Shown here: positions 17,161-63,414 of the stretch, in pieces | Position numbering within the stretch: position 1 is the first letter of the stretch | How the letters are laid out: every line of letters begins with the position of its first letter | Source: Squalus acanthias | Lineage: Eukaryota | DNA length: 64,000 nt | Assembly: GCA_030390025.1 (NCBI GenBank) | Contig: CM059432.1 | Span: 15,750,001 to 15,814,000, forward strand | Reading direction: 5' to 3' | Program-made: the position numbers and the translations under genes | Notes under the pieces: generated by a model | Seen by the model: the letters and a program-made list of their open reading frames with translations, nothing else | What the model was told of the DNA's origin: nothing | Databases searched by the model: none

Positions 17161-17906
17161 GTAAATCGATTTTTTTTTTTTTAAGTTTAAATTGAACCCT
17201 TTATTTTGAAATTGAAATTTAAAAACGTGTTTGGAGATTATTGCCTTGACTGGCTGATGAGAAAATGGCCAATAAAGTTTTATTTATAAAGGAAAGAATT
17301 AACTTTGCTCGGGGAGACAGTTCAAGTATGGAGAGCGACACCGTTTTAGCGACATGCCTTAAATTTAGTAGAAAATGCCGGATTACACTCACAATACAGG
17401 TAAATGTACTGCACATGTGTCCATTCACTTAACAAACATCTACCACCATTCAGTGACCAAGGAAGTAAAGCACCCACAGCGAACAAAAAGTACTCGCACA
17501 CTCTGTTTTTCATCTTAACCATTTTACAAACAAACGCACAAAGAGGTTAAAGTACACGCATGCGAATAACAAATATTGAGATGCCCAGCAAAGGTGTCTA
17601 TTACTCATTTCTTATTTACTAATCAGAAATGCAGTTAGCCACATCTGGATTCCCAATTTGCCGCATGTGTCCAGTGGCTAATGTATTGGACGACACTGAT
17701 CGACAACCCCCTTCACCCCATAGAATGCGACCACCCAGTGAAAGCTCCGTCCAGCCGATACCCCCTTTCTACAGGCATTGCCCCTGACAAATATCGCATT
17801 TGCCACTGGTTGTAAATTGCAGACTGCCTGATGTGACAAATGGTTCCTATGGTGGATTGGAAGGATGTGATGGCATGAAAACTTCATGAAGGCCTTGTCT
17901 TGAGGA

Positions 17907-18004
17907 CAAAAATGAGAAGTCGCACAACACCAGGTTATAGTCCAACAGTTTTATTTGAAATTACGAGCTTTCGGAGCTCTGCTTCTTCTTCAGGTACAGG
18001 TACA
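17907..18004 (-). mobile_element. 98-bp hammerhead-containing mini-insertion, family B, 12-bp TSD
   Basis: ttgtcttgagga at 17895-17906 and 18005-18016; minus strand gtac-CTGAAGA-agaagc.aga.gctcc-GAA-AGCT-C-gtaa (17961-17997). Confidence 0.8.
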
Positions 18005-18714
18005 TTGTCTTGAGGAAGACAAGGCCATTCCTGTTCCAGATGTTGTCTGCGGGTTATCCCGCAGCAGATGCCACATACCCTGTGGCAGCCACCCTTGTGA
18101 AGCAGAAGCTCAAAAGACAAGTCTCTTGCATGTCCAGGTCGAGGTGGCGGGTTGAATAAACACAGATGCGGGGGTAGTGTTGGTGCAGGCAGAATGTTTC
18201 AAGTCTTGTTGCAACCTTCATTTCTGGCTCCTCACAATCCACAGTACTATCTCAATGCACAAAGTAATTCCGATGTTCACCACTTGATATGGTTCCATTT
18301 AATAAAAGCAGCTACCAAGCTATAGGGAGGAGAATACTGGCAGGAAAAAACCCCAAAATATTAATAATGGTGCACTACACCAACTAATGCATGGAGCAGA
18401 ATGCAGCAAAACTTAACAGAAAGGACAAAATAAACAAATATTCTTCGAAGTAACTGCAACATTAACCTTTCTTGTTTGCCTAACTCATAAGTCTATATCC
18501 TCAGCACTCTTGTGATATGGAGTCGTTTCACAAAGGACAACAAATGTCCTGGTTCTGTTTTAGAAGCGGAGAGAAAGCCTCGGAAATTGAGGCATCGTGA
18601 AAGAGTCCATTTTTTAAAAAAAGGAGCCGGGACACCAGCTTCCAAAAACACCAGATTGTAAGAGGAAATATTTACATACATCAGCCTGAGAGAGAGAGAG
18701 ACAAACTACTTGAG

Positions 18715-19985
18715 AGAGGCAAAAGAACCAGAGGAGACATGAGGAAGCATTTTTTTTACACCGCGAGTTGGTGTGATCGGAAATGCACTGCCTGAAAGGG
18801 CGGTGGAAGCAGATTCAGTAGTAACTTTCCAAAGGGAATTGGATAAATACTTGAAGGAATTTATTTTTACTGGGCTATGGGGAAAGAGCAAGGGGAGTGG
18901 GGCTAATTGGATAGCTCTACCAAAGAGCAGGCACAGGTACGATGGGCCAAATGGCCTCCTTCTGTGCTGTGTCAATCTATGACTCTATTAAGAAATCTTA
19001 TGAGGGGCATAGATAGCGTAGATAGAAAGGAACTTATCCCCTTAGTAGAGGGGTCAATAACCAAGGGGCATAGTTTCAAGGTAAGGGGCAGGAGGTTTAG
19101 AGGGGATTTGAGGAAAAACTTTTTCACCCAGAGGGTGGTTGGAATCTGGAACTCACTGCCTGAAAGGGTGGTAGAGGCAGGAACCCTCACAACATTCAAG
19201 AAGCATTTAGATGAGCACTTGAAACGCCATAGCATACAAGGCTACGGACCAAGTGCTGGAAAATGGGATTAGAATAGACAGGGCTTGATGGCCGGCGCGG
19301 ACACGATGGGCCGAAGGGCCTCTTTCTATGCTGTATCACTCTATGACTCTATCTACTTAGGAACAGGAGTAGGCCATTCAGCCCCTCGAGCCTGTTCCAT
19401 CATTCAGTTGGAGCATGGCTGATCTGTATATTAACTCCATCTACCCACCTTGGTTCTGTAACCCTTAATACTATTGCCCAACTAAAACCTATCAACTTTA
19501 ATTTTAAAATTTTCAATTGACCCCCAGCCTCAACAGCTTTCTGCAAGAGAGAGAGTTCCAGATTTCCACTACCCTTTGTGTGAAGAAGTGCTTCCTGACA
19601 TCATCCCTGAACGGCCTAGCTCTAATTTTAAGGTTCTGCCCCCTTGTCCTGGATTCTCCCACCAGAGGAAATAGTTTCTCTCTATCTACCCGATCAACTC
19701 CTTTCATCATCTTAAACACTTCAATTAGATCACCCTTTCAATCTTCTACACTCAAGGGACTGCAAGCCTAGTCTGTGCAATCTGTTCTCATAATTTAACC
19801 CTTTTAGCTCCGCAATCATTCTGGTGAATCTTCACTGCACTCCCCTCCAAGGCCAATATATTCCTCCTGAGTTGCAGTGCCCAGAACTGTATGCACTACT
19901 CTAAATTTGGGTCTAACCAGTGTTTTATATACCTGGAACATAACTTCCACTCGCTTGTATTCAAGCCCCCTTAAGATAAAGGCCA
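18715..19985. mobile_element. Cluster of three CR1-type 3' fragments (+, +, -)
   Basis: ORFs 18773, 18907 and 19513(-) with WNSLP/FFTQRVV motifs. Confidence 0.82.
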
Positions 19986-20374
19986 ACCCTTGAGCAGACC
20001 AGGCCCCAGGAACCTGGATTTGCCCATTTTATTTATCGCTGAGGTGCAAACTGTGGGAAGAGCTCAACCGGTTAGGAAATTAAGATGAGGGATCCAATGG
20101 TAAATACTTATTCTATTGCAATGAGGCCCATGCAAGCTGGTAGCAAGGCCTCATTTTATTCCATGCAAATTGTGCCTGAGAAGATCGGGCATGGGTTGTT
20201 TTCAGTTGCGCATGATCAGAGCCCTGATTAGCCAACCTATGATCGCTTCTCATGAGTCTCCTCATCGTCAGCGAAGCCTTAAAAAAATCGGGGCTTTAGA
20301 ACTTCACTGAGAGGAGTCATCATTGGATTCTGTACCGCTTCAGTTCTGATTTTAGTTTCTCTTTAATAAATATT

Positions 20375-20495
20375 CTGGTTCCTACATTACAACACTGACT
20401 ACACTTCAGAAGCACTTCAATGGCTGTAAAGCGCTTTGGGATGTCCTGAGATTGTGAAAGGCGCTGTATAAATGCGAGTCTTCCTTTTTTTTCCC
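20375..20495 (+). mobile_element. SINE 3' tail abutting the acceptor of LAMA1 exon ~13
   Basis: ttcctacattacaac...gtaaagcgctttggg...gcgctgtataaatgcgagtcttcc matches the tails at 2740-2850 and 26630-26740. Confidence 0.75.
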
Positions 20496-20502
20496 TTCCC
20501 AG

Positions 20503-20604
20503 CTGACTGCCTATGGAGGATACCTGAAGTTCACTGTGTTGTACGATTTTCCAATGGAAAGCACCGACAATGAGCTGACTTCTAATATTGATGTCATTAT
20601 TGAG
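20503..20604 (+). CDS. LAMA1: Laminin alpha-1 exon (~exon 13), L4a domain
   Basis: cccAG|...|GTaagg, 102 nt; LTAYGGYLKFTVLYDFPMESTDNELTSNIDVIIE. Confidence 0.92.
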
Positions 20605-20672
20605 GTAAGGATGCTGGAAACAATTACAAATTGAATAAAACTGATTGCACAGAGAAACAACTCCCAAACTAT

Positions 20673-21508
20673 GGGGGCGATTTTGCCAGCCCTGGGGAGG
20701 CGGGTATGAAGGTGGGACTGCCGGGAAAATGGCAGAATTTGGAGGCGGGTGCCCAACTGCCCCCAACCCACCATCTTCCCAGGAGGCGGGTAGCCGTCCC
20801 GCGCCGGGTCCCGTCTCCTTGGAGGCGGGAAGGGATTAAAGCCTATTAACTGTCTGTTAACAGGTAGTTAACAGGCAGAAAATAGGATTATCCCCTTTTT
20901 GCCCTCACAAGTGCGGGCTTCCCGAAGGCTCCAAAACCCGCCAGCTCAGCGAGGCGAGTACTGGGTCTGCGGGGGTCAGGGGGATGCAAAAGTGTGGTGT
21001 GAAGGTAAGTGATGGGTGCAAGAGTGTAGAGGTGAGTATCTGAGGTAAGTGCAAAGTGTTTTTAAAAGTGTACTTACCTTTGTTTCTTCCTGCAGGCTTC
21101 CGTCGGTGTGTATGCGGAGAGTCTCGGACCTCCGTGTTGCAGATGAGAGATGGCCGTTGCATTCTCAGATGCAACAACCATCTAATTTCTGTAAAACAAA
21201 GAAGTTTGGTAAGGTGTTGTAAGCAAGACCTCATCAAACTGCAGAGAATGTTACTGTTTGACAGCTTCACAGAGCTGTCAAACGATAACAATTCATCTGT
21301 CAAAAATTTTTGACAGGTGAAACGTCATACATTAACGTGCTCTGCAACCGGCTTTCCCTTAATTGGCCTGCTCAGCCCGCTGGGCGGACTTAACAAGGTC
21401 AATCAAGGGAAAATAGTGTGGGTTGGCTACAAATCGATGGAGGTGGGACATCGACCCGACAAGCAGCAGTCCCGCCTCCAATGCGCCCCCATTCACAAAA
21501 TTGCCCCC
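20673..21508. mobile_element. MITE family 3, 3-bp TAT TSD
   Basis: TIR gggggcgattttg / caaaattgccccc, tat flanks. Confidence 0.7.
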
Positions 21509-22654
21509 TATGATGCCGGAGGTCTGTGCACATTGTACATATTCTTGCTGAGCGCACTTCTTGGAGGTGACATACATTGAAAGGGTAATTCTGGGCTCAC
21601 AGTGGAGTGAGTGTGGGTCAGAGATAGGGCTATAATATAACCCCAGTTCTCTGACCCTCTTCCCCAGAAGCAGGGAATCATGCAATTATCCCTTTCGCCT
21701 ACACGTTACATGCAGGTCACCAGTATGTTTTCTGTTTTAGCTCCTGTAAAACATTATTTACACCCAGGAAGTAAATTGGACACAGTTTGAAGGATGATTT
21801 TCATTTGTCACAGTAATTCATATACAGAAGTATGTTATTAAGCAAAAGTGAACCCGTAGGACTCACGCAGTTAATGATTTACAATAAAAGCCTGCTTAAT
21901 CCTGGGAAACTCCCATGTGGTGAATCTCATTAAAAACCCCTTTTGTTGATGCCAGAAGGCATTAATGTCCTTTTGTAAACCTTATTGAGCGTCTAATACT
22001 TGGAGCATACTGATAGCTGGCAGGTCCACACAAACTGCCTAAAACCCAAAATTAGCAAAATACCACCAACATTGATGAGCTGCAAGACTGTAATCTAATC
22101 TCTGGGATTAATTGCTGTAAATTAATTCAATTCCCTCTTGTGATTTATTAAACTGAAGCCCTTGATTAGATTACATAGAGCATGCTGGCTAAATGGGAGT
22201 AATTACAAGAGAAGAATCTCATCAAGGGGTGCAAATGATGTCATTAACTATGAAAGCAATTTGCTTTGTCACCTAAAATGCAAAATGCGATTATTTTCAT
22301 GATAGTCACTCACATGTGCTCATCAACAACCAGAACATCTTCTATTTATATCGAGCCTTTGACATAGTAAAACGTCCCAAGGAACATTCCCTTTAAGCTG
22401 CGCGGCCACTCGGTGCTCTGGAGATCCCACGCAACCGGCCCACCGGCTGTTAAATGGGAGAAACCGCGCGTGGCACGGAATTTTGAAGGGGCCGCTTCAT
22501 CCAAAAAATATTAAATGCAACATTGGTCCCAAGGCGCTTCAGAGGAGCGTCATAAAACAAAATGTGACACGGCGCCACATAAGGAGAAATTAGGGCAGAT
22601 GACCAAAAGCTTGGTCAAAGAGGTAGGTTTTAAGGAGCGTCTTTTTCTTAAAAA

Positions 22655-23178
22655 TTTATGGGATCTGGGCGTCGCTGGCAAGGCCAGCATTTATTGCCCA
22701 TCCCTAGTTGCCCTTGAGAAGGTGGTGGTGAGCCGCCTTCTTGAACCGCTGCAGTCCGTGTGGTGAAGGTACCCCCACAGTGCTGTTAGGGAGGGAGTTC
22801 CAGGATTTTGTCCCAGCGACGATGAAGGATCGGCGATATACTTCTAAGTCAGGATGGTGTGTGACTTGGAGGGGAACTTGGAGGTGGTGGTGTTCCCATG
22901 CGCCTGCTGCCCTTGTCCTTCTAGGTGGAAGAGGTCGCGGGTTTGGAAGGTGCTGCCGAAGAAGCCTTGGCGAGTTGCTGCAGTGCATCTTGTAGATGGT
23001 ATACACTGCAGCCACAGAACGCCGGTGGTGAAGGGAGTGAATGTTTAAGGTGGTGGATGGGGTGCCAGTCAAGCGGGCTGCTTTGTCCTGGATGGTGTCG
23101 AGCTTCCTGAGTGTTGTTGGAGCTGCACTCATCCAGGCAAGTGGAGAGTATTCCATCACACTCCTTACTTGTGCCTTG
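22655..23178 (-). mobile_element. CR1/L2-group LINE 3' fragment nested in an L2 remnant
   Basis: MEYSPLAWMSAAPTTLRKLDTIQDKAARL...KSWNSLP; same family as 46500-47352; L2 sequence on both sides. Confidence 0.8.
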
Positions 23179-24642
23179 TGGTCTTAAAGGAGGAGAGGGA
23201 GAAGTAGAGAGGCGGAGCGGTTTAGGCAGGGAGTTCCAGAGCTCAGAGCCTTGGCAGCTGAAGGTGTGGCCGACAATGCTGGAGCGATTAAAATCGGGGA
23301 TGTTCAAGAGGCCAGAATTAGAGGAGTGCGGGTATCTCGGAGGGTTCCACTTTTTTATGATGTATATTTGTTTTGATTCTGAGTCAGAAAATAATGGGTT
23401 CAACCCCCACAGCAAGACTTCATCACATAACCTAGGCTGGCACTCCACTACAGTACTGAGGAGACTCTGTATTGTCACATGTACTGCCCTTCGGATAAGA
23501 TGTTAAAGTGAGGCTCTGTTTTGTTATTCTAGCTGTCTAGATGACTGTGAAAGATGCAATAGCTCTAGCTGCCCTATTATCATGCTCTTTCAGTTTGAGC
23601 TGTAGATTCAGTGGTAAGGATGCTTGAAAAATCGTTCCCCTCCTGCTGAAGAGTGGACAGTGCCAGTCCCTCCACCCTGATCTCCTTTTCTTCTCGCCCC
23701 TCCTGTTTGTTGATAAGCAAAGTTTTTCTTGAAATAAGTCAGTCAGTTCCCCTAAATTGGGTGCTGTCACCTTACAGATAGTAATGATGAGGGCTGTGTG
23801 ATTTCATTCAATTTCACACTGATGGCATTGACGGAGGAGGGAGAAGGGCAAGGAATAATATTTAACGGGACACCATTTGGCAAACTTTTGCTCAGCTTCC
23901 ATGGGGCATATTTTGCTCCATTTGCTAACTTTATGCTCACCCTGACTTATTAGCTTCAGTTCGCAAGCAGAAAAAAATATTCCTCCAGTGGCGCGATCAA
24001 GTTGAAACCCAACATCATCACACTTCTACATGATATCACCAATAAAGATGTGATTGACAGGCTCTTTTACCTCCCAAAGAGACGGCCTTGTAACAAATGT
24101 TTTGTGCTCTTTGATTTTTAGTGCCAGCTTTATTTAAGCTAACTCGCACCTCCAGGTCAGACAGTTGTAGTTCATGTTTCATTCCAGGACTTGCTTATGT
24201 AATCTAGCCTGACACTTCAGTGCAGTACTGAGGAGGTGCTGCATTGTCAGCGATGCCATCCTTTAGAAGAGACATTAAACTGCGTGTTCCAGTGGTTCAG
24301 GTCAACATAAAAGATCCCATGGAACTATTTCAAAAAGGGTAGGGAGTTCTTCCATTCTCTGGGCCAACATTGCTTCTTCAACCGACAATACCAAGAACAA
24401 ATTGGTCATTCATCTCCACGCTGCTCATGAAGTCTTGCTGTATGCAAGATAGCTGCCACATTTCCCCACATAATGAGACTCTGCTGAATTGCTCCTGTTT
24501 GAAGCTTTGATATTATTGTTTAATGACGCATTTAATCACAGTATTGTTCTGACTGGATTACAATATTTTTTCCAGTGCTGCACAGCACGGTAAATGCTCT
24601 CTCTTATTTTGTAAACTGACTGTGCACATTTTGATCATTTAG

Positions 24643-24854
24643 GGCAATGGTCGAACGCTGAGTACAGGGTCCGATGGCCTTCTGCTCCAACCATATGAAG
24701 AACAATTGGTTGCAGTTCGACTCCTACCCGAAAACTTTGTGGACCTTAATACAAATAATGCAATAGACCGAGATCGACTCATGACCGTTCTAGTAAATGT
24801 AACACGCCTGCAGATCAGGGCCACATACAACATTGCCAGAAAGGCTGTGTACAG
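24643..24854 (+). CDS. LAMA1: Laminin alpha-1 exon (~exon 14), L4a domain
   Basis: tttAG|...|GTgagt, 212 nt; GNGRTLSTGSDGLLLQPYEEQLVAVRLLPENF...DRDRLMTVLVNVTRLQIRATYNIARKAVYR. Confidence 0.93.
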
Positions 24855-28029: not shown

Positions 28030-28069
28030 GTAATACAGAAAAAACTCGTCTTTTGATTACATCTTTATA

Positions 28070-31054: not shown

Positions 31055-31777
31055 AATAGAGTTTCTACCATGAAGAGCTAGGAATTACATGCACTAGTAC
31101 ATTATCTGTACAGTAAATACATCTTCCATAGTGATATCGGCATATCTCTGTTTTGATCTCTGTTTTGTCGATATGTGACTTCATAAATGTCCTGTTTCTA
31201 ACCTATGTACCATGGTCATTTCCCACCTAATTTGGCTAGTGCAAGCAATCTCCGAAATTTCAGTATAGTGGAAAGCTTTTCAGCCCATTGTGTCCATACA
31301 GTGTTCGTTCTCCCACTACAGCTATCTGCTGCAACACCACGGCCCTGCGCTTTCCCCATACCTTTCAATAGTTTTCTTCTTCAAGTGTTTATCTTCCTTT
31401 CTCCTATATAATGCGAGAGAATCTCGATGGAACCTGTTGCGAGTTGTTATGATCTGGAGCGCACTGCCTGAAAGGGTGGTGGAAGCAGATTCAATAATAA
31501 CTTTCAAAAGGGAATTGGAAAGGGTAAAATTTGCAGGGCTACGGGGAAAGGGCAGGAGAGTGGGACTAATTGGATAGTTCTTTCAAAGAGCCTGTGCAGG
31601 CACGATGGGACGAATGGCCTCCTCTGTGCTCTATCATTCTCTGATTCTACGATTGATTTAGCTTCCCATGCCACTTATGGTAAAACATTTCGGGGGAGAA
31701 ATTCAGTGTCGCCCCATTTGTCTCTTTTTTTCTTTCTTAATCTTTCCCTTTTCTTTATTTCTCTTTCTGTTCCTGAT

Positions 31778-31935
31778 ATATACTGTGTAATAGATTCCCT
31801 CACTGTACCTTTACCTGACGAAGGGGCAGCAGCTCGAAAGCTCGTAATTTTAAATAAAACTGTTGGACTATAACCTGGTGTTGTGCGACTTCTCATTTTT
31901 GTCCACCCCAGTCCAACACCTGCATCTTCGCATCA
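31778..31935 (+). mobile_element. 158-bp hammerhead-containing mini-insertion, family B, 10-bp TSD
   Basis: tgttcctgat at 31768-31777 and 31936-31945; ttac-CTGACGA-aggggc.agca.gctc-GAA-AGCT-C-gtaa at 31811-31847. Confidence 0.8.
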
Positions 31936-33803
31936 TGTTCCTGATTTGACATTGAATTCACCCACTCTAAATCACCCTGCTTCTCAGTCCTTCCTCTGTT
32001 TATTTCTTAACCCTCATTGGTTAAGGAGATACCCTGTTGGTCCCATTGTTCACCAGCGTCCCAGATGCCCTGTTGCCGTTATCAGCAACTTTCAGGGCAA
32101 AAAGATTTTTGAACGGAGGGCTGAAGGAAAAAGTCTAACTGACCGGGCACACCGTGAGATGCCCTGCTCCAGCAAATTCTGGTCCCAATATCTTTCAAAG
32201 ATCTGTGTGTTGGTGCACCGATACCTCTGTTCCACTGACACACTGAGAATTTTACCATTTAGGTAATTTACCATTCAAAAATAGATCATTGTGAAATGCC
32301 AAAAGTGCACACAGTCACGCACCAGTAATGGTTTGAAAATCAAGACTATGATCTCATTTCTGTCAATATGCTAACTTGCTTAATTCCAAATCATGAATAA
32401 ATGTTGGTTTCACTAACTAGTAGTTCCTGAGTTTACTCTCACTCTGGAAAAGCAGCCAGAAGGGATTTGTAATTTGAAGAAAATCAAATGGGTAGTTTTG
32501 CAATTATTTCATTTCTTCGATAACGGAAGCTGAAAAATAAATGCAATAGACTTTTGTGACATGTATAACTAATTTTCTATCATTTATTTTTATACATGCC
32601 TTGGGGGGGGGGGTGAAATTTGTGCTGTCAATAATTTTATTGGAAAAAGGTCAGCGTGGAGCTGTTTTGTACTCGCACTGACTTTTCCACTAATATTATT
32701 GCTTGGTGAATTTTCACCCTGATGTATACCTTTGAAAGGAGAATGGGTAAGCTGCAGTACAAATATCAAAATTCAGAAACGTGAATTTTTGTGTGTTCAC
32801 AACACTTGAATATCAAATTGCCTCATCACTTGATGGCCAAACATTTCTTAATTTCTCAATGTTCCAGATTTTGCTGAAGTATCATAATAAAGATATAACC
32901 TGCGAAGTATGCCATACACGTCCCTATCTTTCTGAAACTGAAAAAGGTGATTTTGTGAGGCTGCACTCCTGGTGTTGAGCCTTAGACCAGAGCGTGGGTT
33001 GCAGAATCTTCTCTATAGTGTTATAGCCCTATTTCCACCCCACAATCTTGTGTAATGAGGCACAGTGCCAGGGCTGTTGTCCTTAAAGGGGCAGCTGCAG
33101 GCTGCTCTGAAAATAGGGGGGGGGGGAAAACACCGTGGCACTCATTTCTGTGGGGCAAGGAGAAGCATGAATGTTCCCACCCGCTGCTGGTCTCTTAGTG
33201 CTTCATACCCCCACCTTTAAGGGCCCCCGTACGGTGCTGGTAGCTTGCCAAACATATTCTGACCCTGAACATGGTTCGGGCCTCTCACTAGTGGGTGGGC
33301 AGCGCGATCACTCCGCCCGATGCGCACTCTGAACAAAAATCAGCTTGTGGGAGTCTTCACAGGAACAAAGAGCGTGACCCTCACACTTAAACGCATTGTC
33401 ACGCCATTGTTTACATTATTCATTTACTCATTTACTTTGTTAGAATTCAACCTTTCCACATGAACATGACTTCCCAACATAATACTATGCTTCCAGCTTA
33501 AAAGGTGCTACCTTTTCTTATGGGGGGGCTGGGGAACCTCATTCACTGGCAGTGCATATGGACAATCATGGGCTCTTTTCTGGTATGTGCTGGTGGTGGG
33601 TAAAGTTCCTTCCCCCCCCCCCCCCTCCGCCGCCTCCCCACCAACATGGAAAATTAACCCAAAGTTTTTTTGAAAAAAAAATGAATCCAAGAAAGAGGTC
33701 TTTTGAATGGTCTTTGAATTATAACTTGGGATATTAGAACTTTAAGAGATGTCAGAAATGCTCTGCAGTGGGTTTTTATGGACTCAATTATTATTTTCAA
33801 CAG

Positions 33804-37727: not shown

Positions 37728-39375
37728 TGTGGCAGAGGGAGGTGGCTGTGGCGGAGGGAGGTGGCTGTGGGAGAGCGAGGTGGCTGTGGCGGAGGGAGGT
37801 GGCTGTGGCGGAGGGAGGTGGCTGTGGCGGAGCGAGGTGGCTGTGGCGGAGCGAGGTGGCTGTGGCGGAGGGAGGTGGCTGTGGCGGAGGGAGGTGGCTG
37901 TGGCGGAGGGAGGTGGCTGTGGGAGAGCGAGGTGGCTGTGGCGGAGCGAGGCGGCTGTGGCGGAGCGAGGCGGCTGTGGCGGAGGGAGGCGGCTGTGGCG
38001 GAGCGAGGTGGCTGTGGCGGAGGGAGGTGGCTGTGGCGGAGGGAGGTGGCTGTGGCGGAGGGAGGTGGCTGTGGCGGAGGGAGGCGGCTGTGGCGGAGGG
38101 AGGCGGCTGTGGCGGAGCGAGGCGGCTGTGGCGGAGCGAGGCGGCTGTGGCGGAGGGAGGCGGCTGTGGCGGAGGGAGGTGGCTGTGGCGGAGGGAGGTG
38201 GCTGTGGCGGAGGGAGGTGGCTGTGGCGGAGGGAGGTGGCTGTGGCGGAGGGAGGCGGCTGTGGCGGAGGGAGGCGGCTGTGGCGGAGGGAGGCGGCTGT
38301 GGGGGAGCGAGGCGGCTGTGGCGGAGGGAGGCGGCTGTGGCGGAGGGAGGCGGCTGTGGCGGAGGGAGGCGGCTGTGGCGGAGCGAGGTGGCTGTGGCGG
38401 AGGGAGGTGGCTGTGGCGGAGGGAGGCGGCTGTGGCGGAGCGAGGCGGCTGTGGCGGAGGGAGGCGGCTGTGGCGGAGGGAGGCGGCTGTGGCGGAGGGA
38501 GGCGGCTGTGGCGGAGGGAGGCGGCTGTGGCGGAGCGAGGCGGCTGTGGCGGAGCGAGGCGGCTGTGGCGGAGGGAGGCGGCTGTGGCGGAGGGAGGCGG
38601 CTGTGGCGGAGCGAGGCGGCTGTGGCGGAGGGAGGCGGCTGTGGCGGAGGGAGGCGGCTGTGGCGGAGGGAGGCGGCTGTGGCGGAGGGAGGCGGCTGTG
38701 GCGGAGGGAGGCGGCTGTGGCGGAGGGAGGCGGCTGTGGCGGAGGGAGGCGGCTGTGGCGGAGGGAGGCGGCTGTGGCGGAGGGAGGCGGCTGTGGCGGA
38801 GGGAGGCGGCTGTGGCGGAGGGAGGCGGCTGTGGCGGAGGGAGGCGGCTGTGGCGGAGGGAGGCGGCTGTGGCGGAGGGAGGCGGCTGTGGCGGAGGGAG
38901 GCGGCTGTGGCGGAGCGAGGCGGCTGTGGCGGAGGGAGGCGGCTGTGGCGGAGGGAGGCGGCTGTGGCGGAGGGAGGCGGCTGTGGCGGAGGGAGGCGGC
39001 TGTGGCGGAGGGAGGCGGCTGTGGCGGAGGGAGGCGGCTGTGGCGGAGGGAGGCGGCTGTGGCGGAGGGAGGCGGCTGTGGCGGAGGGAGGCGGCTGTGG
39101 CGGAGGGAGGCGGCTGTGGCGGAGGGAGGCGGCTGTGGCGGAGGGAGGCGGCTGTGGCGGAGGGAGGCGGCTGTGGCGGAGGGAGGCGGCTGTGGCGGAG
39201 GGAGGCGGCTGTGGCGGAGGGAGGCGGCTGTGGCGGAGGGAGGCGGCTGTGGCGGAGGGAGGCGGCTGTGGCGGAGGGAGGCGGCTGTGGCGGAGGGAGG
39301 CGGCTGTGGCGGAGGGAGGCGGCTGTGGCGGAGGGAGGCGGCTGTGGCGGAGGGAGGTGGCTGTGGCAGAGCGAG
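37728..39375. repeat. GC-rich 19-bp minisatellite, about 86 units
   Basis: Unit GGCGGAGGGAGGCGGCTGT with GAGCG and GGTGG variants. Confidence 0.97.
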
Positions 39376-54216: not shown

Positions 54217-55239
54217 AATGTTTCCACTTGTGGGGAAGAGCATAACTAGAGGCCATCAATATAAGATAGTCACCAAGAAATCCAATAGGGAATTCAGAAG
54301 AAACCTCTTTACCCAGAGAGTGGTGAGAATGTGGAACTTGCCACCACAGGGAGTGGTTGAAGTGAAAAGTATAAATGCATTTAAGGGGAGGCTGGACAAG
54401 CAGATGAGGGGAAAGGGAATAGAGGGTTATGCTGATAGATTTAGATGAGGAAAGACGGGAGGAGGCTCGAGTGGAGCATAAACGCCAGCATGGACTGGTT
54501 GGGCCGAATGGCCTGTTTCTGTGCCGTGTATACTATTTAATCCATTCCAGAAATTGGGATGTTTAGTATTGTTTAGGGCTGCCTCAAATAGTTGCTCCTC
54601 TCGGAAGCTTATTCTATGGCACTGATTTAAAAACACTTTTCTTTTTAGTGTCGATCATTGTTGATGAGAACTCAATAGGCAATCATATTTTTAAAGTTTT
54701 AAAATGCCAATATTCTCCCTCATTTGGTGCATGTCTCTTTGTCCTCTCCACCGGAGGACATTTTCTGTGGCCAATCGTACACGTCAGCGGGAATCTGAGG
54801 AGAATGAGTGAAATAAAGGAAAGTGTAAAAGAGTTGGCATTTTCGCCAGATTTGAAGATTGAAAGATAAACCGTTGTACTGACTCTAATTGAAATACTAA
54901 AAGCCCAATCTCGCCCACTTTGAAGGAGCATAGCATTTTGTGTAGGGAGTAATGGCTATTTGACGACTATTTTGTAGAAGCCTATTGACTGAACAGAAAA
55001 TCAGCTGCCTGTTGGGCTGATATATTTGCCAGGATTTACAGGAATAAAATTAGATTGAACACTCGACAAAAGAAAGATCCCGTCAGCGCCCCAGCTCAAA
55101 TGGCCTGTTGATACGTAGTGCCATCTACAGGCAAAAGAAACAAGTTAGAAGAACTCTCTTTTTTTCCCCCCCCAGATTATATATGTTACCTTTGGGTCGG
55201 CTCCTGCTTCACTTATGGTTTTTATCTTTTGTATTTCAG

Positions 55240-55346
55240 CTTGTGACTGTAGCGTGAATGGTTCGTTTAATGAGGTGTGTGACCTCAAGACTGGTCATTG
55301 CCAGTGCAAGGCCAACGTGCGGGGCCAGAAGTGTGACCAGTGTTTG
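55240..55346 (+). CDS. LAMA1: Laminin alpha-1 exon (~exon 20)
   Basis: ttcAG|...|GTatgt, 107 nt; CDCSVNGSFNEVCDLKTGHCQCKANVRGQKCDQCL. Confidence 0.93.
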
Positions 55347-57029
55347 GTATGTATTTATGGTTTGCGTCGGCTTGCTAACGATCATTCACGCGGGACCCAA
55401 AGAAGCGAATAAAACCGGAAGTTTGATTGTAGGTCCGCAAAGTATTTCCTGTGTATTTGTTAAGTCGTGCTTTCTGAGCAGTTGTCTAGGAAGCTACAAG
55501 CTTCTCGCTTAGCGATCTCTTAAATCTGCCTGCTGGAACAATGCAACTTTAAATCCACGAGCCGGTTTTAACGTGAGATGATATCTCTATTGCTTAGGTA
55601 AAAGCCAGATGCCTAAATCTTTATATTGCAACAAAATAAGCTAATTGACGTTACACCTCGCAGCCTGCAGTTAACAGCTGAACCATATTATCACTGCCCT
55701 TAGGTTTGTAATTTTTTTAAATTTAAGTTCTAATCGTGGAACTGATTTGATTTAATAATGATACATTTTGACTTGATTTCAGGCAGCCGAAGTGAGGCCC
55801 ATTAGGCATGGTTGTAAGGCTTTTATTCCTGTGAAGTATTCAAATAGATGGAAAACAATAGATTCCGCAGAGGGACTCCTTGGCTGCAATCTTATTGAGG
55901 AGTTTACGTCAAAATCTGAAAGCAAAGCTCAGCGTCTAACTGGCTGTTTCCCAATCTCAGAATAATATCTGGTGATCATTCTCACACGCCCATTGTTTTC
56001 TGATAGTGTACAATAGGGAGTCGACATTTTATTTTTGTTTTTTTTCTCCTTTTTTTTTAGTTTGTTTTTTTGGCCATTGCCAAGATGGCCAAGCGTGAGA
56101 GTGAAGGATTACTGCTTGCAATATCATTGTTTTTAATTTATCTAACGGTGATCACGGATTGACCGCGTCAAGAGTAAGCGAGAGCATTTTGCATTCGATC
56201 AAGCTACGCAATCCTAACCAGTACCTTGAACAAGGGACAGAAACAAGGGACAGAAATGCTGCAACATGGATTGACGGGACATAGCCCACATCTGCAATTT
56301 TCCACAAAATGGGCTCCTGATTTCAATCCTGCAACTTTTGAGATTTTCAAGTGGCGGCCAATACTGCCACACAGGATGCAAAAAAAATTCTAAAGGACCA
56401 GTAGTTATGTTAAATAGTTTTATTTTACTGGGACCCTTCCATTTACTGCAGGGAGGCAGGGAAGGGGGATAATCACAGAATCATACAGCACAGATGGAGG
56501 CCATTCGGACCATCGTGTCTTTGAAATGAGCTAAACCATTAGTTCCCTGCTCTTTCCCCATAGCCCTGCAAATTTCTCCTCTTCAAGTGTATATAGTGTT
56601 GCCTCCGAGTAGCATTCCTGTGCTTTCTTTTGCTGGGGAGCAGCAACAGCAGAAGGAACAGCTTTGAATCCCAGCTCAGAAGCATCAAGTTAGCCAAGCA
56701 CTAAAGGTGACGTTACGAGTAGTGCAATTTAACTGTGTGAAGTAAGTTGAACTGACAGGTTGGCTAGCCGTTGACGGACGTTACTATGTTTCAGGAAATT
56801 TGAAAGCTCTGTAGTCTGTTGTTTGCCATTAGTGGGATGGAAGATGTTTTGAAACTGCCATCACTAGGTTTCTAAGCTTCAGTGCCAGGCATTGTGGGAT
56901 TTCAGCAGGCACAAAAAACCATGAATTCAGAAACCGTCCAACACAACTCCGTCCGTTAATATTTGGTTCTCGAGTGGTATACAGGACAATAGCTGGGTGG
57001 TTCATAGTGAGATACAAACAATAATGATA

Positions 57030-57845
57030 ACTTGCCTCCACAGCTCCTTTAACATAGAAAAACATCCCCAAGGCTCTTCACTGAGGAGCAATCAAACAAA
57101 AAAATGGGCGTCAAGCCAAAGAAGGAGATATTCGAAGGGGTGGCCAAAAGATTTAATTGCGAAGATGAGAATTTTTAAATTGAGGTACCGGCACCAATGT
57201 AGATCAGCAAGGACAAGATTGATGGGTGAGCGAGACTTTGTTCAGATTGGGATACAGGGAGCAGAGTTTTGGATGAGCTGAAGTTCATGGAATGTGGAGA
57301 ATGGGAGGCTAGCCAGGAGAGCATTGGAATAGCCAAGTCTGGAGGTAGCAAAGGCATGGATGAGGCTTTCAGCAACAAATGGGTTAAAGCAGGGACGGAG
57401 ATAGGTGATGGTACGCAGGGAAAAGTAGACAGTCTTTGTGATGGGAGAGGATGTAGAATTGGAAGCTCAGCTCTGGGTCAAATTGGATACTGAGGTTGCA
57501 AACAGTCTTGTTCAACCTAAGACAGTGGTTGTGGAAGGGGTGGAATAGGTGGTGAGGGTCTGCAGTTTGTGGAGGGGCCAAAGTCGATGGCTTCGTACTT
57601 CCCAATGTTTAACTGGAGTATATTGCGACAGGATGTCGGACAAGCAGTCTGATATTACAGAGGCAGTGGAGGGGTTAAGTGAAGTGGTGGAGAGGTAGAG
57701 CTGCTGTCTTCACTGGAAAGTGACCCCATGCTTTCGAGCAATGTCACCGAGGGGCAGCATGTAGGTGAGGAAGAGGAGACGACCAAGGATAAATTTTTGG
57801 GGGACTCTAGAGGTAACGGCACAGGGGCAGGAAGAGAAGCCATTT
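57030..57845 (-). mobile_element. Degenerate L2-type LINE with internal deletions
   Basis: Similar to 39712-42700 and the reverse complement of 3340-4260. Confidence 0.7.
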
Positions 57846-58192
57846 AATAAACATTCTTTAAATGATGAAGGACTTTGATAGGACGAATAGGGACAGATTG
57901 TTTCTCTGGTCGGGTAGTCAGTGATGAGGCGTCATCAATTTAAAATTTTCATTAAGCGAGGTGAGGAAAAAGGTTCGGAGAAACTTAATTACACAGAGCA
58001 TGGAATGCTGCGCCAGAGGGAGTGGTTAAGGAAAAATTAGATCAACATTTGAAACAGAGGAAGATACAGGGCTACAGGGAGAGCGGAGTAATGAGATCTG
58101 TTTTAAATTGTTCCAGTCAGCACTGACACGATTGGTGCAATCGACTCTTTCTGTGCAGTAAACCTCTATGGTTCTATGAATATTATTCATTG

Positions 58193-58289
58193 AAACAAAA
58201 ACAGAGAATGCTGGAAATACTCAGCAGGTCAGGCAGCATTTGTGGAGAGAGAAACTGAGTCAACGTTTCAGGTCGATGACCCTTCGTCA
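58193..58289 (-). mobile_element. 97-bp hammerhead mini-insertion, family A, 15-bp TSD
   Basis: gaatattattcattg at 58178-58192 and 58290-58304; minus strand CTGACGA-agggtc.atc.gacct-GAA-ACGT-T-gact. Confidence 0.82.
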
Positions 58290-58732
58290 GAATATTATTC
58301 ATTGGGCTATCAGTGTTATTTTATGTATGTATCTAGTGTGTTATTGGTCTTTATTATTTCCTGCATATCAGTTTAATTATGTTAGGGGGAAGCAGTGTAT
58401 GTGACAGCAATGTGCCAAATAAACACGGATGCTTATTTTGTTTTTATCCGTGTTTTTTGGAGTCCATTTTTTTTTCCTTTGATTTTCTCTGGATTCTGAT
58501 GGCCAAAAATAGAATTTGAAAAGTACTGGAAAAAAAATGTGTTTTTAAATCAATTAAAAAAAAAAGTAACTTTAATGATCTTTACTGAGGAAGGTGCTAA
58601 CCTACCTGCCTGCCGCTTGCAAGTCTAAACTCGCTGACTCCTTTGCCTGGACAATGCATATTGTAGTGAATTGTTCAAATTGCTTTGGCCTCTGCACTGA
58701 TGCCTAACCAACGCTCTTACTGTGCCTAACAG

Positions 58733-58913
58733 CATGGGTATTTTGGCTTGAGCACTGGACTGGGCTGTGTTCCCTGCAACTGCAGCCAATTGGGCTCAAT
58801 CTCTGAGGACTGCAGCGATGGTGGGCAGTGCCGCTGTGTGCCAGGGGTGAGTGGAGAGAAGTGTGACCGCTGTGCACATGGCTTTTATGGATTCCAGGAT
58901 GGTGGCTGTACAC
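58733..58913 (+). CDS. LAMA1: Laminin alpha-1 exon (~exon 21)
   Basis: aacAG|...|GTaagt, 181 nt; HGYFGLSTGLGCVPCNCSQLGSISEDCSDGGQCRCVPGVSGEKCDRCAHGFYGFQDGGCT. Confidence 0.93.
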
Positions 58914-60018
58914 GTAAGTGCTTAAACTATTTTTGGAAGTACGGAGTGAAAGTGATAACTTTGCAAAACTCCCTTTTCAGTTCAAAGGAGCAACTGCATT
59001 TACGAAAATTTCTTTAAAAAAAAAAGAAGCTATATCAACACGAGAGGCTGTATCGGTATAATATCAGTATAGAGTAGAAACCTCCGAATACACAACCGGA
59101 ATGCAAAGCTCGATGAATCCATGCCGTTATCTGCAATGCATGGGAATATTTGCTCCTTATCTTCAACGCAGGGCAGATTCTCATATAAAGGGGAGCCAAG
59201 TAATTGAAAGCCAATTGATCTAATTATTTTTTTTTCCCAATTTTATCCCTTTCTCCTCTGATCCTGGAGTACAATTCCATGACGGCTGCTTGCACTCTGG
59301 TACCTCACAGAAGCATCCATTTTTAAAAAAAATGTGTGTGCCTAGTGTCAGCGGACGATTCCACCATAAAGCCCATCAAAGCTGAGGCCAAGCTTGTCCT
59401 CAATCGACATCCACGTAAAGAGTGGGTCACTGGAGAGTGATCAGGAACTGGCACGCTGGCTGACTTCTCTCCTTTGCTAGCCCAGGGGCATTGAGGCTCT
59501 CGCTAACTCGGCACAGACCAGGGTTTGAACTTGGCGGCTCCAAAGCCTGGATGGTCCATTGCAACATCAGTCAGCGCCTTTTTACCCATTGCACCATCAG
59601 CTGAGCTTGGTTGATTTTCTTCGAACAAGACAACCCTGAAACTAGCTGTGCAGTATTATTGTACACATGCTTACCATCTTCTTATCAAATTGCCTTATAT
59701 TAACAGAGGCATTAATTCATTTCAATTAAACGGGTTACTACCTTTTCAGATGAAGGGGCTGACACCTGTGTTGCAATCTCAGACAGCAGAATTTGACATG
59801 CACACATTAAACATTCATGCAATAATATTGCACAGCATAATTTATGGACTAATGGTACTGAATAATAGTTGCATTGGATGGTAATATTCCCTGGAAAATA
59901 AGTGGACACACAGAATTTAGTGCTGAATTTTGAAGTAGAATATATTTAATGAATATTTTTGACAACGGTAGGGTGGAAAAGCCCTTTCCTACAAAATCTC
60001 AATGTGTTTTCGCTGCAG

Positions 60019-60155
60019 CTTGCGACTGTGCCCACACTCGGAACAATTGTGCGGAAGGTTCTGGCCAGTGTATCTGCCCACCACACACCGAGGGAGCCAA
60101 ATGTGAACGCTGTGAGGCCAACTACTGGGGTCACGACCCTGAAAGTGGATGCAAG
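60019..60155 (+). CDS. LAMA1: Laminin alpha-1 exon (~exon 22)
   Basis: tgcAG|...|GTagag, 137 nt; CDCAHTRNNCAEGSGQCICPPHTEGAKCERCEANYWGHDPESGCK. Confidence 0.93.
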
Positions 60156-62052
60156 GTAGAGTAAGCAGAATGCATTGCATTCAGCGGCAAGGCCTTGCTC
60201 CCATTTCTGTTCTTTTGATGCGCTTTTCATCAGTCCTACCTTTATGAAGTCTAATGCCAAGCCCCTTTGATCCTTTTAATCTTTCATGATCGCGATCAGT
60301 AGAAATCATCAATTATTATTTCCCTCGGGCATGAGCGAACAATTAAATGAAATGGCCTGTTTAGAAACAGTTGTTGGTGCCTGTCCAGCCTCTACTCTGC
60401 CCAGATTGAAGACGCTGATGATGATTAGAAACTGGACTGTAAATGTTGCATTTTTACATTGGTTCAAGCTGCCTACAATGGTTCTCTTTTACATTTGCTT
60501 CCTAGTTCTTGACCCGTATGAAAATCAGAATGCAGGGCTAATGAGACATCTATGCTCCCAGTGGAGAATCTGTGCTCACAAAGAGCTAGGGCTGGAGATA
60601 AGGGAACAATACTGTCGTCCTGATTCTCCCTGCGCGCTCTGTGAGCGTGGTTCCCCACTTGGAGTATGGAGTTGTGAAATCCTTAATCCTTATAAGACGT
60701 GGATAAAGATTGCACAAATTACAGGCTTCCTCTTCCTCCATTTTGATGTCCTTTTAAGAGCCCAATAGCTTGGGATTTGCTATATTGACTATTGCAGCAT
60801 GTTCAGCAAAGTTGTTAACCAATGCTGTTCTAATATGAAACAGCCTTGACCCTTATGAATCCTTGTGGACTTATTGCTGTTAATGTTGCGAGGATCTGCT
60901 GCCAGCACAGTACCTTTTTAGGCGTGAGTGCGAGACAGTGATAGGCTTACAACACTATAGACCCAATTCTCCGACCTGCACTCGCCACTAGCGAGGCTTC
61001 CACAGAGCCATAGAAAATTAACCCAACTAACTGTTGCACTTGAAAGTGATGTTAAGTAACTTTGCTTAAAAATTTGTTTAACTAATTGGCATAGAATCAT
61101 AGAACCTCAGGAACGACAATGCTGTAGTAATCACTTTATTCCAAAAGGGTAATTTCAGACCCAACAGGGTAGATTTTAGCTTTCGGGTGGTTGCCCACCC
61201 GTGCTGGGAGCGAAGAGGCCATGGGAACTTCGAAGCCGGGGACTCATTTGAACGGTCCTCGTTGGCTGTACCGCCTGTAAAACTGGTCAGAGTGTGCACG
61301 GCGCACACTGCACACAGTTGCCCCCCCCAAAATGGCAGTCAGGGTCCTATTTATGTCATAGGGCCCCGATTTGCATCTTAAAGGCCCACCGCCTGAAACG
61401 GGCTGGCGCTTCATCCGCCCAACGGTAGGGCTGGAGCTTCAGCGTTATGTGGCGGTAAGTCTGCCGACGCCATTTTGGGACCATTAGCATCTCGTTAACA
61501 CCGACTAGACCTCGTTGAAATAGGCCCCAACAGTTTCTTAGAAATTAGTTACTTCGATCCTGGATTGATGTCAGTCAAAGCTTGCAAACCATCATGCAAT
61601 AGTAAAACAGAAACCATTAAAAACCACAAGCTACAACAATTCAAGTTGTTTATTTTTTTTACACAAGAAACCATTGTGCAGTGCTCTGTAGTAATTATGG
61701 TGATAAAAGTATGACTTACACTTTGGGATATATTTTTTGTCTGTTAGTAAAAGTCAGCTTAAGTATAAAGTGGTTTTGAATAACAGGAAAATATACCCGT
61801 TGTCCTGATCAAAATTGGATCAAAGGTCGACTGGCTAAAAGCAGGCATTGTTGGACTGGAAATTCCGTCAATGCCACTTGTTATTGAAATAAGGCTTATT
61901 GTAAAGACTGATCAGTATGAAGTCTTTAACCTGCTTTTAATCCTCAAATATTTCCAACTGTGATACAGCTGCTCTTCGATTTACACTATAAAGACGTAAT
62001 GAAAGCTCGTTTATCACCATCATCTCAATTCCTTTTTTTCATTTTTGGGCAG

Positions 62053-62289
62053 TCTTGTAACTGTAGTGAGATCGGTTCCGTTGGTCTTCAGTGTGATGGA
62101 ACGAGTGGTCACTGCCCCTGCAAAGGAGAGTTCAGTGGAGAAAAATGCAACAAGTGTGCTATTGGCTACAGGGACCACCCTCAATGCATTGCCTGTAAGT
62201 GCGATCCCAGTGGTACCAGACCTGAAAAATGTGATCTGACACAAGGAGTTTGCAGCTGTGAGGAACGCACTGGGCTTTGTCCCTGTAAG
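62053..62289 (+). CDS. LAMA1: Laminin alpha-1 exon (~exon 23)
   Basis: ggcAG|...|GTacag, 237 nt; SCNCSEIGSVGLQCDGTSGHCPCKGEFSGEKCNKCAIGYRDHPQCIACKCDPSGTRPEKCDLTQGVCSCEERTGLCPCK. Confidence 0.93.
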
Positions 62290-62681
62290 GTACAGCATCA
62301 CTTACATAACTATAGCATCTAATGAGAATGACTAACTTTATTCTCTTTTTATCGCACCTCTCTCCACTGTTCTATTTTTCTTGCTTTCTTTAGGCCCTCT
62401 TGTGTCATGTGCTTCTCTCAAGAGAGGCAGCAAATAACTTGCCTCCAGCTTCCTGATAATCTGCTATGCCGCATTTGACCCTGCCCTCCCCTGTAGGACA
62501 GCTGCAGAATGAGTTGACCTCTTATTTTTATGCCTTTCCTTATGTGGTAGAGAACCTCCCTAGATGTTAAGCCGAGATAGGGAACTCACCAATTGTTGGT
62601 AGGAACCTGAATGATACCACCTATTCCTTGGAATTCTCTACACCAGAGGGCTGTGGATGCTCAGTCATTGAGTATATTCAA

Positions 62682-62832
62682 TGATGCGGAGATGCCGGTG
62701 TTGGACTGGGGTGGACAAAAATGAGAAGTCGCACAACACCAGGTTATAGTCCAACAGTTTTATTTGAAATTACGAGCTTGTAATTTCAAATAAAACTGTT
62801 GGACTATAACCTGGTGTTGTGCGACTTCTCAT
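62682..62832. mobile_element. 151-bp family B insertion folded into a palindrome, 14-bp TSD, inside a CR1 3' fragment (62625-63000)
   Basis: ttgagtatattcaa at 62668-62681 and 62833-62846; inverted repeat 62719-62834. Confidence 0.85.
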
Positions 62833-63414
62833 TTGAGTATATTCAAGGCTGTGATCGATAGATTTTTGGACTCTAAGGGAATCAAATGGGCATTGGGCAG
62901 GAAAAGAGGTCGAAGATCAGCCATGATCTTATTGAATGGCGGAACAGGCTCGAGGGGCCGTATGGCCTACTCCTGCTCCTATTTCTTATGTTCTTATGTT
63001 AAGTGAAGCTGTGGTGGTGGCAGGGTGCATCCACTGTATTATGGAGTGGAGAGGCACAGGTTTAAAATCCCAAATCCTGCTGTGTTGTTGCTGAGGAGAG
63101 GTCTGGCTCTCATTCAGCAGATGATAGAAAATTGGAGGGAGAGTCTGTCGAGCTACTGTCATGTGCCTCAGGCTGAAGAATGGAGTCCTGGTAGAAGGTC
63201 ACCATCCCTCTTAGCGACAGAAAGTACATGAACTGGCAAGATCAGGAAATCAGTAATTTGATATGTTCAAAATATACAATTGAGGATCGTAACTTAAAAA
63301 AATCAATTCTTTTTATATTCCTTTTTGAGGGGGATTGACAGGGTAGATACTAAGAGGTTCTTTCCCCTTGCATGAACAGTCTAGAACTAGGGGCATAGTT
63401 TCAGGATAAGGAGT

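What the first reader, a model, noticed from the sequence alone, without database searches (positions are those of the whole stretch)
17895..62846. Family B: a tiny non-coding mobile element built around a hammerhead ribozyme (retrozyme-like), three independent insertions
Seen: three related inserts, 17907-18004 (-), 31778-31935 (+) and 62682-62832. Each is only 98-158 bp and each has its own direct repeat (12, 10 and 14 bp). They share gtaattt.aaataaaactgttggactataacctggtgttgtgcgacttctcatttttgtcc, and two end at the same 3' point (...gcatct(c/t)cgcatca). Two contain a full hammerhead core, CUGANGA-stemII-GAA-AGCU-C, with stem I ttac/gtaa. Known: Penelope-like elements and retrozymes carry minimal type I hammerheads whose palindromic stem III allows cleavage as dimers. 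Inference: this is a non-autonomous self-cleaving RNA element mobilised in trans, probably by PLE machinery. It is distinct from family A (AGCU versus ACGU palindrome, unrelated flanks) and has no ORF in this window. I cannot tell whether it has already been catalogued.
Basis: partly seen in the sequence, partly recalled or inferred. Interest (0 to 1): 0.85.

Follow-up and report, generated by a model that had tools for sequence, protein, structure and literature searches.

The report
Stubby Penelope retrotransposon ends, not retrozymes
The three tiny insertions are real, but they are end pieces of a very abundant protein-coding jumping gene (a Penelope-like element) whose terminal repeat carries a known kind of small hammerhead RNA motif; many such stubs start just before that motif, which likely marks where the element's RNA begins.

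Summary
The three inserts, their 12/10/14-bp target duplications and the hammerhead motif are real. They are not a separate non-coding element. A 40-mer from them has 28,121 exact genomic matches. [quoted passage not shown] This is a Neptune-type Penelope-like element with close shark relatives. Insert 3 is the known fold-back form; 45 of 47 scorable fold-backs pair one tailed arm with one tail-less arm, and no tandem arrays were seen in 79 insertions. The ribozyme fold is conserved across subfamilies, but inserts 1 and 2 each have a damaged stem II. One extra: about 1% of arms start at the predicted cut site, while 32 of 100 start 40-49 nt upstream of the anchor, just before the ribozyme and about 30 nt after a TATA-like box, often after a G. 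That fits capped, uncleaved RNA as template. The step is weak in the window's own subfamilies, and this scan noted the clustering before on other genomes.

The parts
17895..17906 (.). Target-site duplication of insert 1, left copy (12 bp)
   Evidence: Exact match to 18005-18016
17907..18004 (-). Insert 1: solo, tail-less pLTR fragment of the Penelope-like element; starts 2 nt inside the predicted start of its subfamily
   Evidence: 91% to element unit 2874-2978; same ribozyme type runs into the ORF end in L048/L049
17961..17997 (-). Minimal type I hammerhead motif of insert 1 (3-bp stem I, one stem II mismatch; predicted cut after 17965)
   Evidence: cleavage untested
18005..18016 (.). Target-site duplication of insert 1, right copy
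31768..31777 (.). Target-site duplication of insert 2, left copy (10 bp)
   Evidence: Exact match to 31936-31945
31778..31935 (+). Insert 2: solo, tailed pLTR fragment; begins inside the TATA-like box and ends just before the ORF start codon
   Evidence: 95.7% to element unit 2849-3009; 29 other best genomic matches continue further upstream
31811..31847 (+). Minimal type I hammerhead motif of insert 2 (stem I TTAC/GTAA, stem II one C short; predicted cut after 31843)
   Evidence: cleavage untested
31896..31935 (+). Optional 30-40-bp PLE tail (approximate left edge)
   Evidence: 37 of 100 arms carry it, 62 lack it, 1 intermediate
31936..31945 (.). Target-site duplication of insert 2, right copy
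62668..62681 (.). Target-site duplication of insert 3, left copy (14 bp), inside a high-copy host repeat
   Evidence: empty paralogous site
62682..62779 (-). Insert 3, tailed arm; reaches only the last 6 nt before the predicted cut site
   Evidence: 96.9% to insert 2
62775..62832 (+). Insert 3, inverted tail-less arm; junction on the AGCT palindrome (62775-62778)
   Evidence: 96.7% to insert 2
62833..62846 (.). Target-site duplication of insert 3, right copy

Best explanation
The three inserts are short copies of the terminal repeat of a protein-coding, Neptune-type Penelope-like retrotransposon, likely laid down by that element's own nuclease and reverse transcriptase from uncleaved RNA. Shown: the inserts are contiguous, in longer copies, with an RT plus GIY-YIG ORF; they have target duplications, an optional tail, ragged 5' ends and frequent inverted partners. 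Inferred, by analogy with the anole PLE in vitro: the nuclease nicks both target strands about 10-14 bp apart; each nick primes reverse transcription at one of two internal sites (tailed and tail-less ends); one cDNA gives a solo copy (inserts 1, 2), two cDNAs joined head to head give a fold-back (insert 3). Also inferred (about 0.55): the commonest short class is cDNA that ran off the capped 5' end of a transcript starting in the pLTR about 30 nt after the TATA-like box and 7-10 nt before the ribozyme core. The hammerhead is selected in the active masters and is a decaying passenger in these stubs.
For: 28,121 exact matches of a 40-mer, reversed control 0. L031 has inverted partial pLTR, 292-bp pLTR, ORF, pLTR. 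ORF: RVT_1 E 3.4e-9; CHGNLCKTC linker and VVY..YIG motif; C-terminal 220 aa model (pLDDT 86.7) best matches I-TevI, probability 1.00, TM 0.85 of target, E 0.003; 19 of 120 listed relatives carry PF01541, best hits 92% and 85% from sharks. In the first 100 listed arms, 15 run 400 nt or more upstream and lengths span 9 to about 2,900 nt. 48 of 79 insertions have an inverted partner; 45 of 47 scorable ones pair a tailed with a tail-less arm, as described for PLEs (PMC8557442, PMC3846280, PMC11167929). Starts at the cut site: 373 with a purine before it, 5 of 15 checked being point mutants, against at least 28,121 arms. Pile-up 40-49 nt upstream of the anchor: 32 of 100 arms against 4, 9, 5, 3 in flanking bins and 33 of 100 in a second, partly overlapping sample. 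Genome-wide one-base step in the largest subfamily tested: 11,309, 9,579, 7,456, 6,503 copies at 42, 44, 45, 48 nt, that is 22% lost at one base against 8% and 4.5% per base on either side; the base before that A is G 67, T 21, A 12 of 100.
Against: No intact ORF was found: both full-length copies examined (L031, L078) are frameshifted. Pfam gave no GIY-YIG match on the element's own ORF and the fold match has E above 0.001. For the start-site step: in the window's own two subfamilies only 85 of 1,428 copies (6%) break at the homologous A; none of the three window inserts starts exactly at a peak base; many G junctions can be read as templated by the inverted arm (14 of 22), and the cluster in the insert-2 subfamily sits on a GTAC palindrome. 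No raw reads were available, so transcript ends are not shown.
Confidence: 0.92

Rival explanations
1. A part of the short copies comes from non-autonomous masters: truncated copies that kept the TATA box, start site, ribozyme and tail are transcribed and moved in trans by the PLE protein, like a SINE.
For: A discrete short size class exists; many solo copies keep the TATA-like box; capture in trans between pLTRs is described in a rotifer (PMC3846280, passages).
Against: Short and ORF-reaching copies share ribozyme variants where this could be read (12 of 30 parsed short arms, the rest mostly differing at junction letters); tailed ends often continue into the ATG of the ORF (10 of 37); a run-off cDNA from the full mRNA gives the same size class without a new master.
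Confidence: 0.15
2. One reading: a separate retrozyme-like RNA that self-cleaves as a dimer, circularises and is inserted by PLE proteins.
For: The ribozyme core, stems and palindromic stem III are conserved across subfamilies, with a C-G to U-G to U-A series in stem I; animal retrozymes are proposed to derive from pLTRs (bioRxiv 10.64898/2026.07.22.740005).
Against: No tandem unit in the window; one close head-to-tail pair and no array among 79 insertions; about 1% of arms start at the cut site; the sequence is contiguous with a PLE ORF; copies are not circularly permuted, they share two fixed 3' ends.
Confidence: 0.04
3. The pile-up of 5' ends before the ribozyme is not a transcription start but a joining bias: cDNA ends are trimmed to palindromes or microhomologies (GTAC, AGCT, AAGT/ACTT), or the polymerase pauses after the stem I strand.
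For: Insert 3 folds on AGCT; several junctions are perfect palindromes; weak step at the homologous A in two subfamilies.
Against: Solo copies without an inverted arm also start on the same A, some with an extra G between duplication and element (L158 one G, L151 TG); G outnumbers A 67 to 12 where the inverted arm has 38 G to 32 A (p 9e-9); the peak sits 30-33 nt after the TATA-like box in four of five long copies measured.
Confidence: 0.35

Closest known systems
Endonuclease-positive Penelope-like elements, Neptune type (Craig et al. 2021, PMC8557442; passages seen)
   Same: One ORF with RT then GIY-YIG, CX2-5CxxC linker, pLTRs from partial tandems, strong 5' truncation, adjacent inverted truncated copy, 30-40-bp tail at one end.
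   Different: Nothing of kind. Copy number is high (at least 28,121 arms) and a large share of copies is under 160 bp. Clade placement by tree was not done.
Minimal hammerheads in pLTRs of metazoan PLEs (Cervera and De la Pena 2014, PMC4209133; parts 1-2 of 4 read)
   Same: Core, extra base between 9 and 10.1, G10.1-C11.1 pair, palindromic 15.2-16.2, 4-bp stem I; mostly single motifs from truncated PLEs; opposite-strand pairs 100-700 bp apart.
   Different: Stem II is 5 bp here against 7-8 in the Schistosoma families; the parts read do not mention sharks.
Poseidon of Anolis carolinensis in vitro (Frangieh et al. 2024, PMC11167929; parts 1-2 of 4 read)
   Same: Both strands cut and extended, two internal RT start sites that bound the tail, uncleaved RNA as the main substrate, no reads ending at the ribozyme cut site.
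   Different: There the ORF starts inside the ribozyme and the RT starts lie 111-118 nt into the ORF; here the tail ends at the ATG and the ribozyme lies about 90 nt upstream of it. That paper does not map genomic 5' ends.
Animal non-LTR retrozymes (Li et al. 2026 preprint 10.64898/2026.07.22.740005; parts 1-3 of 5 read)
   Same: Non-coding pieces related to pLTRs that carry a type I hammerhead; seen in the one chondrichthyan sampled.
   Different: Defined by tandem units each with a hammerhead; these inserts are solo or fold-back stubs with target duplications.
Adineta vaga Penelope pLTRs (Arkhipova et al. 2013, PMC3846280; passages) and Drosophila virilis Penelope promoter (Schostak et al. 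2008, PMC2377424; passages)
   Same: A TATATATA box followed by an Inr-like TCACT in the pLTR, inverted pLTR shorter by the tail, 8-10-bp duplications; a promoter shown inside the pLTR.
   Different: The passages seen do not report genomic copies piling up at the start site or an extra G.

Membership tests
EN+ Penelope-like elements | Single ORF with RT followed by a GIY-YIG endonuclease (in the parent) | tested here: met
   RVT_1; fold of the C-terminal 220 aa matches I-TevI and UvrC GIY-YIG domains; ORF collinear with an 881-aa relative but frameshifted in both full copies seen
EN+ Penelope-like elements | pLTR-ORF-pLTR partial tandem | tested here: met
   L031: two 292-bp direct repeats, 98.6% alike, flank the ORF
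EN+ Penelope-like elements | Variable 5' truncation and adjacent inverted truncated copy | tested here: met
   Arm lengths 9 to about 2,900 nt upstream of the anchor; 48 of 79 insertions with an inverted partner
EN+ Penelope-like elements | 30-40-bp tail at only one end | tested here: met
   45 of 47 scorable fold-backs; insert 3 likewise
EN+ Penelope-like elements | Short target-site duplication | tested here: met
   3 of 3 in the window; candidate duplications in 59 of 79 sampled insertions, mode 13-14 with one mismatch allowed
EN+ Penelope-like elements | RT groups with PLE and telomerase RTs in a tree | not tested
   No named reference panel was at hand
Neptune clade | CX2-5CxxC linker upstream of a C-terminal GIY-YIG | tested here: met
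   CHGNLCKTC at 557, nuclease motif at 594; the three cysteine pattern is invariant in 22 aligned relatives. Shared with Nematis; excludes Penelope/Poseidon and Naiad per PMC8557442
Neptune clade | Phylogenetic placement apart from Nematis | not tested
   Inferred from vertebrate host and relatives only
PLE minimal type I hammerhead | CUGANGA and GAAA core, extra base after A9, G10.1-C11.1, palindromic 15.2-16.2 | tested here: met
   67 of 72 parsed arms have an intact CTGANGA, 72 of 72 GAAAGCT(C/T); 6 of 78 arms not parsed, mostly longer loop II
PLE minimal type I hammerhead | Stems kept by compensatory change | tested here: met
   One stem I pair: C-G 37, U-G 9, U-A 22, unpaired 4; one stem II pair: A-U 65, G-U 7. 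Formal count on 15 hand-picked rows (one mis-cut): 96.8% paired, 8 of 500 shuffles, only one pair changed on both sides, so few independent events
PLE minimal type I hammerhead | Self-cleavage as dimer or with protein help | not testable with these tools
   No experiment; the window's two cores have damaged stem II
Non-LTR retrozymes | Tandem repeats of two or more units, each with a hammerhead | tested here: not met
   0 of 3 in the window; one close head-to-tail pair and no array in 79 insertions from the first 11 Mb of one contig
Non-LTR retrozymes | Non-coding unit independent of an ORF | tested here: not met
   Contiguous with the PLE ORF in longer copies of both window ribozyme types
Non-LTR retrozymes | Unit bounded by cut sites; circular RNA | tested here: inconclusive
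   Genomic ends do not fall on the cut site; circular RNA cannot be seen in contigs

The most novel reading that the evidence does not exclude
The commonest stubs are strong-stop-like cDNAs: the PLE reverse transcriptase primes internally at the pLTR-ORF junction of its own capped mRNA and runs off the cap about 90-130 nt later. Tens of thousands of genomic fossils then map the element's transcription start to the base, show in vivo that the ribozyme had not cut the RNA that was copied, and explain how short upstream pLTRs and mini fold-backs arise.
Probability: 0.5. Interest if true: 0.5.

Novelty: new member of a known kind. Interest (0 to 1): 0.24.

Why it matters
As a family it is ordinary: one more Neptune-type element with the hammerhead known since 2014. 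It matters for annotation, since such stubs pass as retrozymes or SINEs when seen alone. The side result bears on an open question, what the PLE ribozyme does and which RNA is copied. If 5' ends mark a capped start upstream of an uncut ribozyme, the genome gives in vivo support to the in vitro finding that cleavage is not needed for insertion, and names a base to test by 5' RACE.

Tried and rejected
Rfam scan of the window: three weak unrelated matches, no hammerhead. PDB sequence search with the ORF: nothing below E 0.2. Pfam on the N-terminal ORF piece: none. Folding energies against shuffles: not significant for any of three ribozyme copies. Expression: 22 runs listed, all contigs, RNA status mostly guessed; three related-species runs cover all 30 bins of the element, but contigs show no ends, strand or circles, so this is not used as evidence. 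Haplotype test for private short-copy masters: inconclusive, small sample and junction letters confound it. Idea that insert 3 marks the cut site because its plus arm can be read to start there: rejected, the junction is ambiguous on the AGCT palindrome and cut-site starts are about 1% genome-wide. Idea that the same A is the start in all subfamilies: not supported. Literature searches found no paper on this shark family or on PLE copies piling up at a capped start; subscription journals, Dfam and Repbase were not searchable, and supplements of the 2026 preprint were not seen and may list this family.
Full report
Observation. An empty paralogue of the site of insert 3 lies in the window and shows the 14-mer region once. 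Insert 3 is a head-to-head fold-back of a tailed and a tail-less arm without a ribozyme core. Inserts 1 and 2 hold the core CTGANGA-A-stem II-GAAAGCTC, each with one lesion in stem II relative to sister copies. Rfam does not detect the motif.

Parent element. The genome has 3.7 Gb. The 158-bp insert drew 1,994 candidates, 40 scored, and a 40-mer from its middle has 28,121 exact matches with a reversed control of 0. The 29 other best loci all share sequence upstream of where insert 2 begins, some for about 1.1 kb. Locus L031 reads inverted partial repeat, 292-bp repeat, ORF, 292-bp repeat; the inserts map to the last 160 bp of this unit, and the tail ends at the ORF's ATG. The ORF has an RVT_1 domain (E 3.4e-9), a CHGNLCKTC linker and a VVY..YIG motif. 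Pfam did not call the nuclease, but a model of the last 220 residues built on 22 relatives (pLDDT 86.7) matched I-TevI first (probability 1.00, rmsd 1.9, E 0.003) and other GIY-YIG domains next. The closest of 2,289 relatives are shark proteins at 92% and 85% identity, named only as uncharacterised; 19 of the 120 listed carry PF01541. The host is therefore likely a shark. The linker motif with a C-terminal nuclease points to the Neptune clade (PMC8557442, passages); no tree was built. Both full-length copies examined are frameshifted.

Shape of the copies. I took the first 100 listed 40-mer matches (first 11 Mb of contig C1; one further arm that came along was dropped). They form 79 insertions: 48 with an inverted partner within 1.5 kb and 31 solo. 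In 45 of 47 scorable fold-backs one arm has the 30-40-bp tail and the other lacks it. Candidate duplications were found in 59, mostly 13-14 bp with one mismatch allowed. Five arms had a same-strand neighbour within 1.2 kb, only one as a close head-to-tail pair, and none formed an array. Upstream reach ranges from 9 nt to about 2,900 nt, with 15 arms at 400 nt or more. The ribozyme types of inserts 1 and 2 both occur in copies that reach the ORF. All this is the described PLE pattern (PMC8557442 and PMC3846280, passages; PMC11167929, parts 1-2) and fails the tandem-unit definition of animal retrozymes (preprint 10.64898/2026.07.22.740005, parts 1-3).

The ribozyme. Of 78 arms that reach stem I, 72 parsed: 67 have an intact CTGANGA, all have GAAAGCT(C/T), loop II varies in length and sequence, one stem I pair runs C-G 37, U-G 9, U-A 22 with 4 unpaired, and one stem II pair A-U 65, G-U 7. 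A formal count on 15 hand-picked rows gave 96.8% paired and 8 of 500 shuffles as high, but only one pair changes on both sides and the rows are related. The features match the minimal PLE hammerheads of Cervera and De la Pena (PMC4209133, parts 1-2). The L031 form folds into stems I and II; the two window forms do not; no z-score is significant. Cleavage is untested.

Where copies begin. If cut RNA were the template, copies would start 8 nt upstream of the anchor. Only 373 arms start there after a purine, 5 of 15 checked were point mutants, against at least 28,121 arms. Instead 32 of 100 arms end 40-49 nt upstream, against 4, 9, 5 and 3 in the flanking bins, and 33 of 100 in a second sample of the window's own stem I type, which partly overlaps the first. 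For one large subfamily, whole-genome counts fall 11,309, 9,579, 7,456, 6,503 at 42, 44, 45, 48 nt: 22% at a single base against 8% and 4.5% per base beside it. That base is the A of an Inr-like TCACTT (motif recalled; a TATA plus TCACT pair is also noted in rotifer pLTRs, PMC3846280), 30 nt after a TATA-like box. The base before it, when not the templated C, is G 67, T 21, A 12, and some solo copies have an extra G between duplication and element. An untemplated G is read as a copied cap in L1 work (PMC9341517, passages). Against this: in the window's own two subfamilies only 85 of 1,428 copies break at the homologous A, with G over A 27 to 5 in the insert-1 type and 10 to 9 in the insert-2 type (hand count); the insert-2 type clusters 3-5 nt further in, 31 nt after its TATA-like box but also on a GTAC palindrome; and 14 of 22 G junctions in fold-backs could be templated by the other arm. 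None of the three window inserts starts on a peak base.

Mechanism. Shown: origin from the PLE terminal repeat, two fixed 3' ends, target duplications, fold-backs, avoidance of the cut site. Inferred from the anole PLE in vitro (PMC11167929): nicks on both strands prime reverse transcription at two internal sites on uncleaved RNA; one cDNA gives a solo stub, two give a fold-back. Inferred at about even odds: the commonest stubs are run-off copies from the capped 5' end of the element's mRNA. A minor trans-mobilised class cannot be excluded (inconclusive). Public contigs cover the element but show no RNA ends.

Family A is a second PLE: 10 of 20 loci have protein matches at 27-45% to this ORF, there is no DNA similarity, and a GIY-YIG fragment precedes the family A motif at 6046-6255 in the window.

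Earlier notes of this scan, seen only after my own counts, reach the same reading on other genomes, including the clustering of 5' ends before the ribozyme; they are not independent evidence. Verdict: real feature, known kind, new or uncatalogued member; interest low, with a testable side result on the RNA start.

Noticed in passing
window 6046-6740, 37579, 48233, 48438, 58290: Family A hammerheads are the terminal repeat of a second, distinct Penelope-like element (about 30% protein identity, also with a CxxxxCxxC-type linker); a GIY-YIG fragment lies at 6046-6255, and 48233/48438 form a tail-to-tail inverted pair.
   Followed up: partly
window 62668-62681; L026, L051, L058/L059, L074, L091, L111: The same site of a high-copy host repeat (GAGTATATTCAA core) was hit by several independent insertions of different structure; other host-repeat sites recur too (L046, L056, L062; L038, L043). 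Points to nuclease preference for near-palindromic AT-rich targets.
   Followed up: no
window 37728-39375: GC-rich 19-bp minisatellite, 86.7 copies, 97% matches, about 50 bp after a family A stub.
   Followed up: no
L073, L096, L101, L112, L265: Subfamilies with a longer loop II (7-8 nt) between intact stem II strands, and N7 = G in some.
   Followed up: partly
L089 (G000:C1:7561331-7562706): Two mini fold-backs in mirror arrangement flank about 1 kb of other sequence; possible capture of host DNA between pLTR pieces.
   Followed up: no
L098 (G000:C1:9084413-9086534): Three fold-back stubs of different subfamilies about 1 kb apart; a local hot spot.
   Followed up: no
L097 (G000:C1:8318641): The one close head-to-tail pair: two ribozyme motifs about 127 nt apart in one orientation, the arrangement that could fold as a dimer.
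   Followed up: no
P0017: A shark gene model annotated as an epn2 isoform includes a 94% identical piece of this element's RT; likely an annotation read-through or exonised copy.
   Followed up: no
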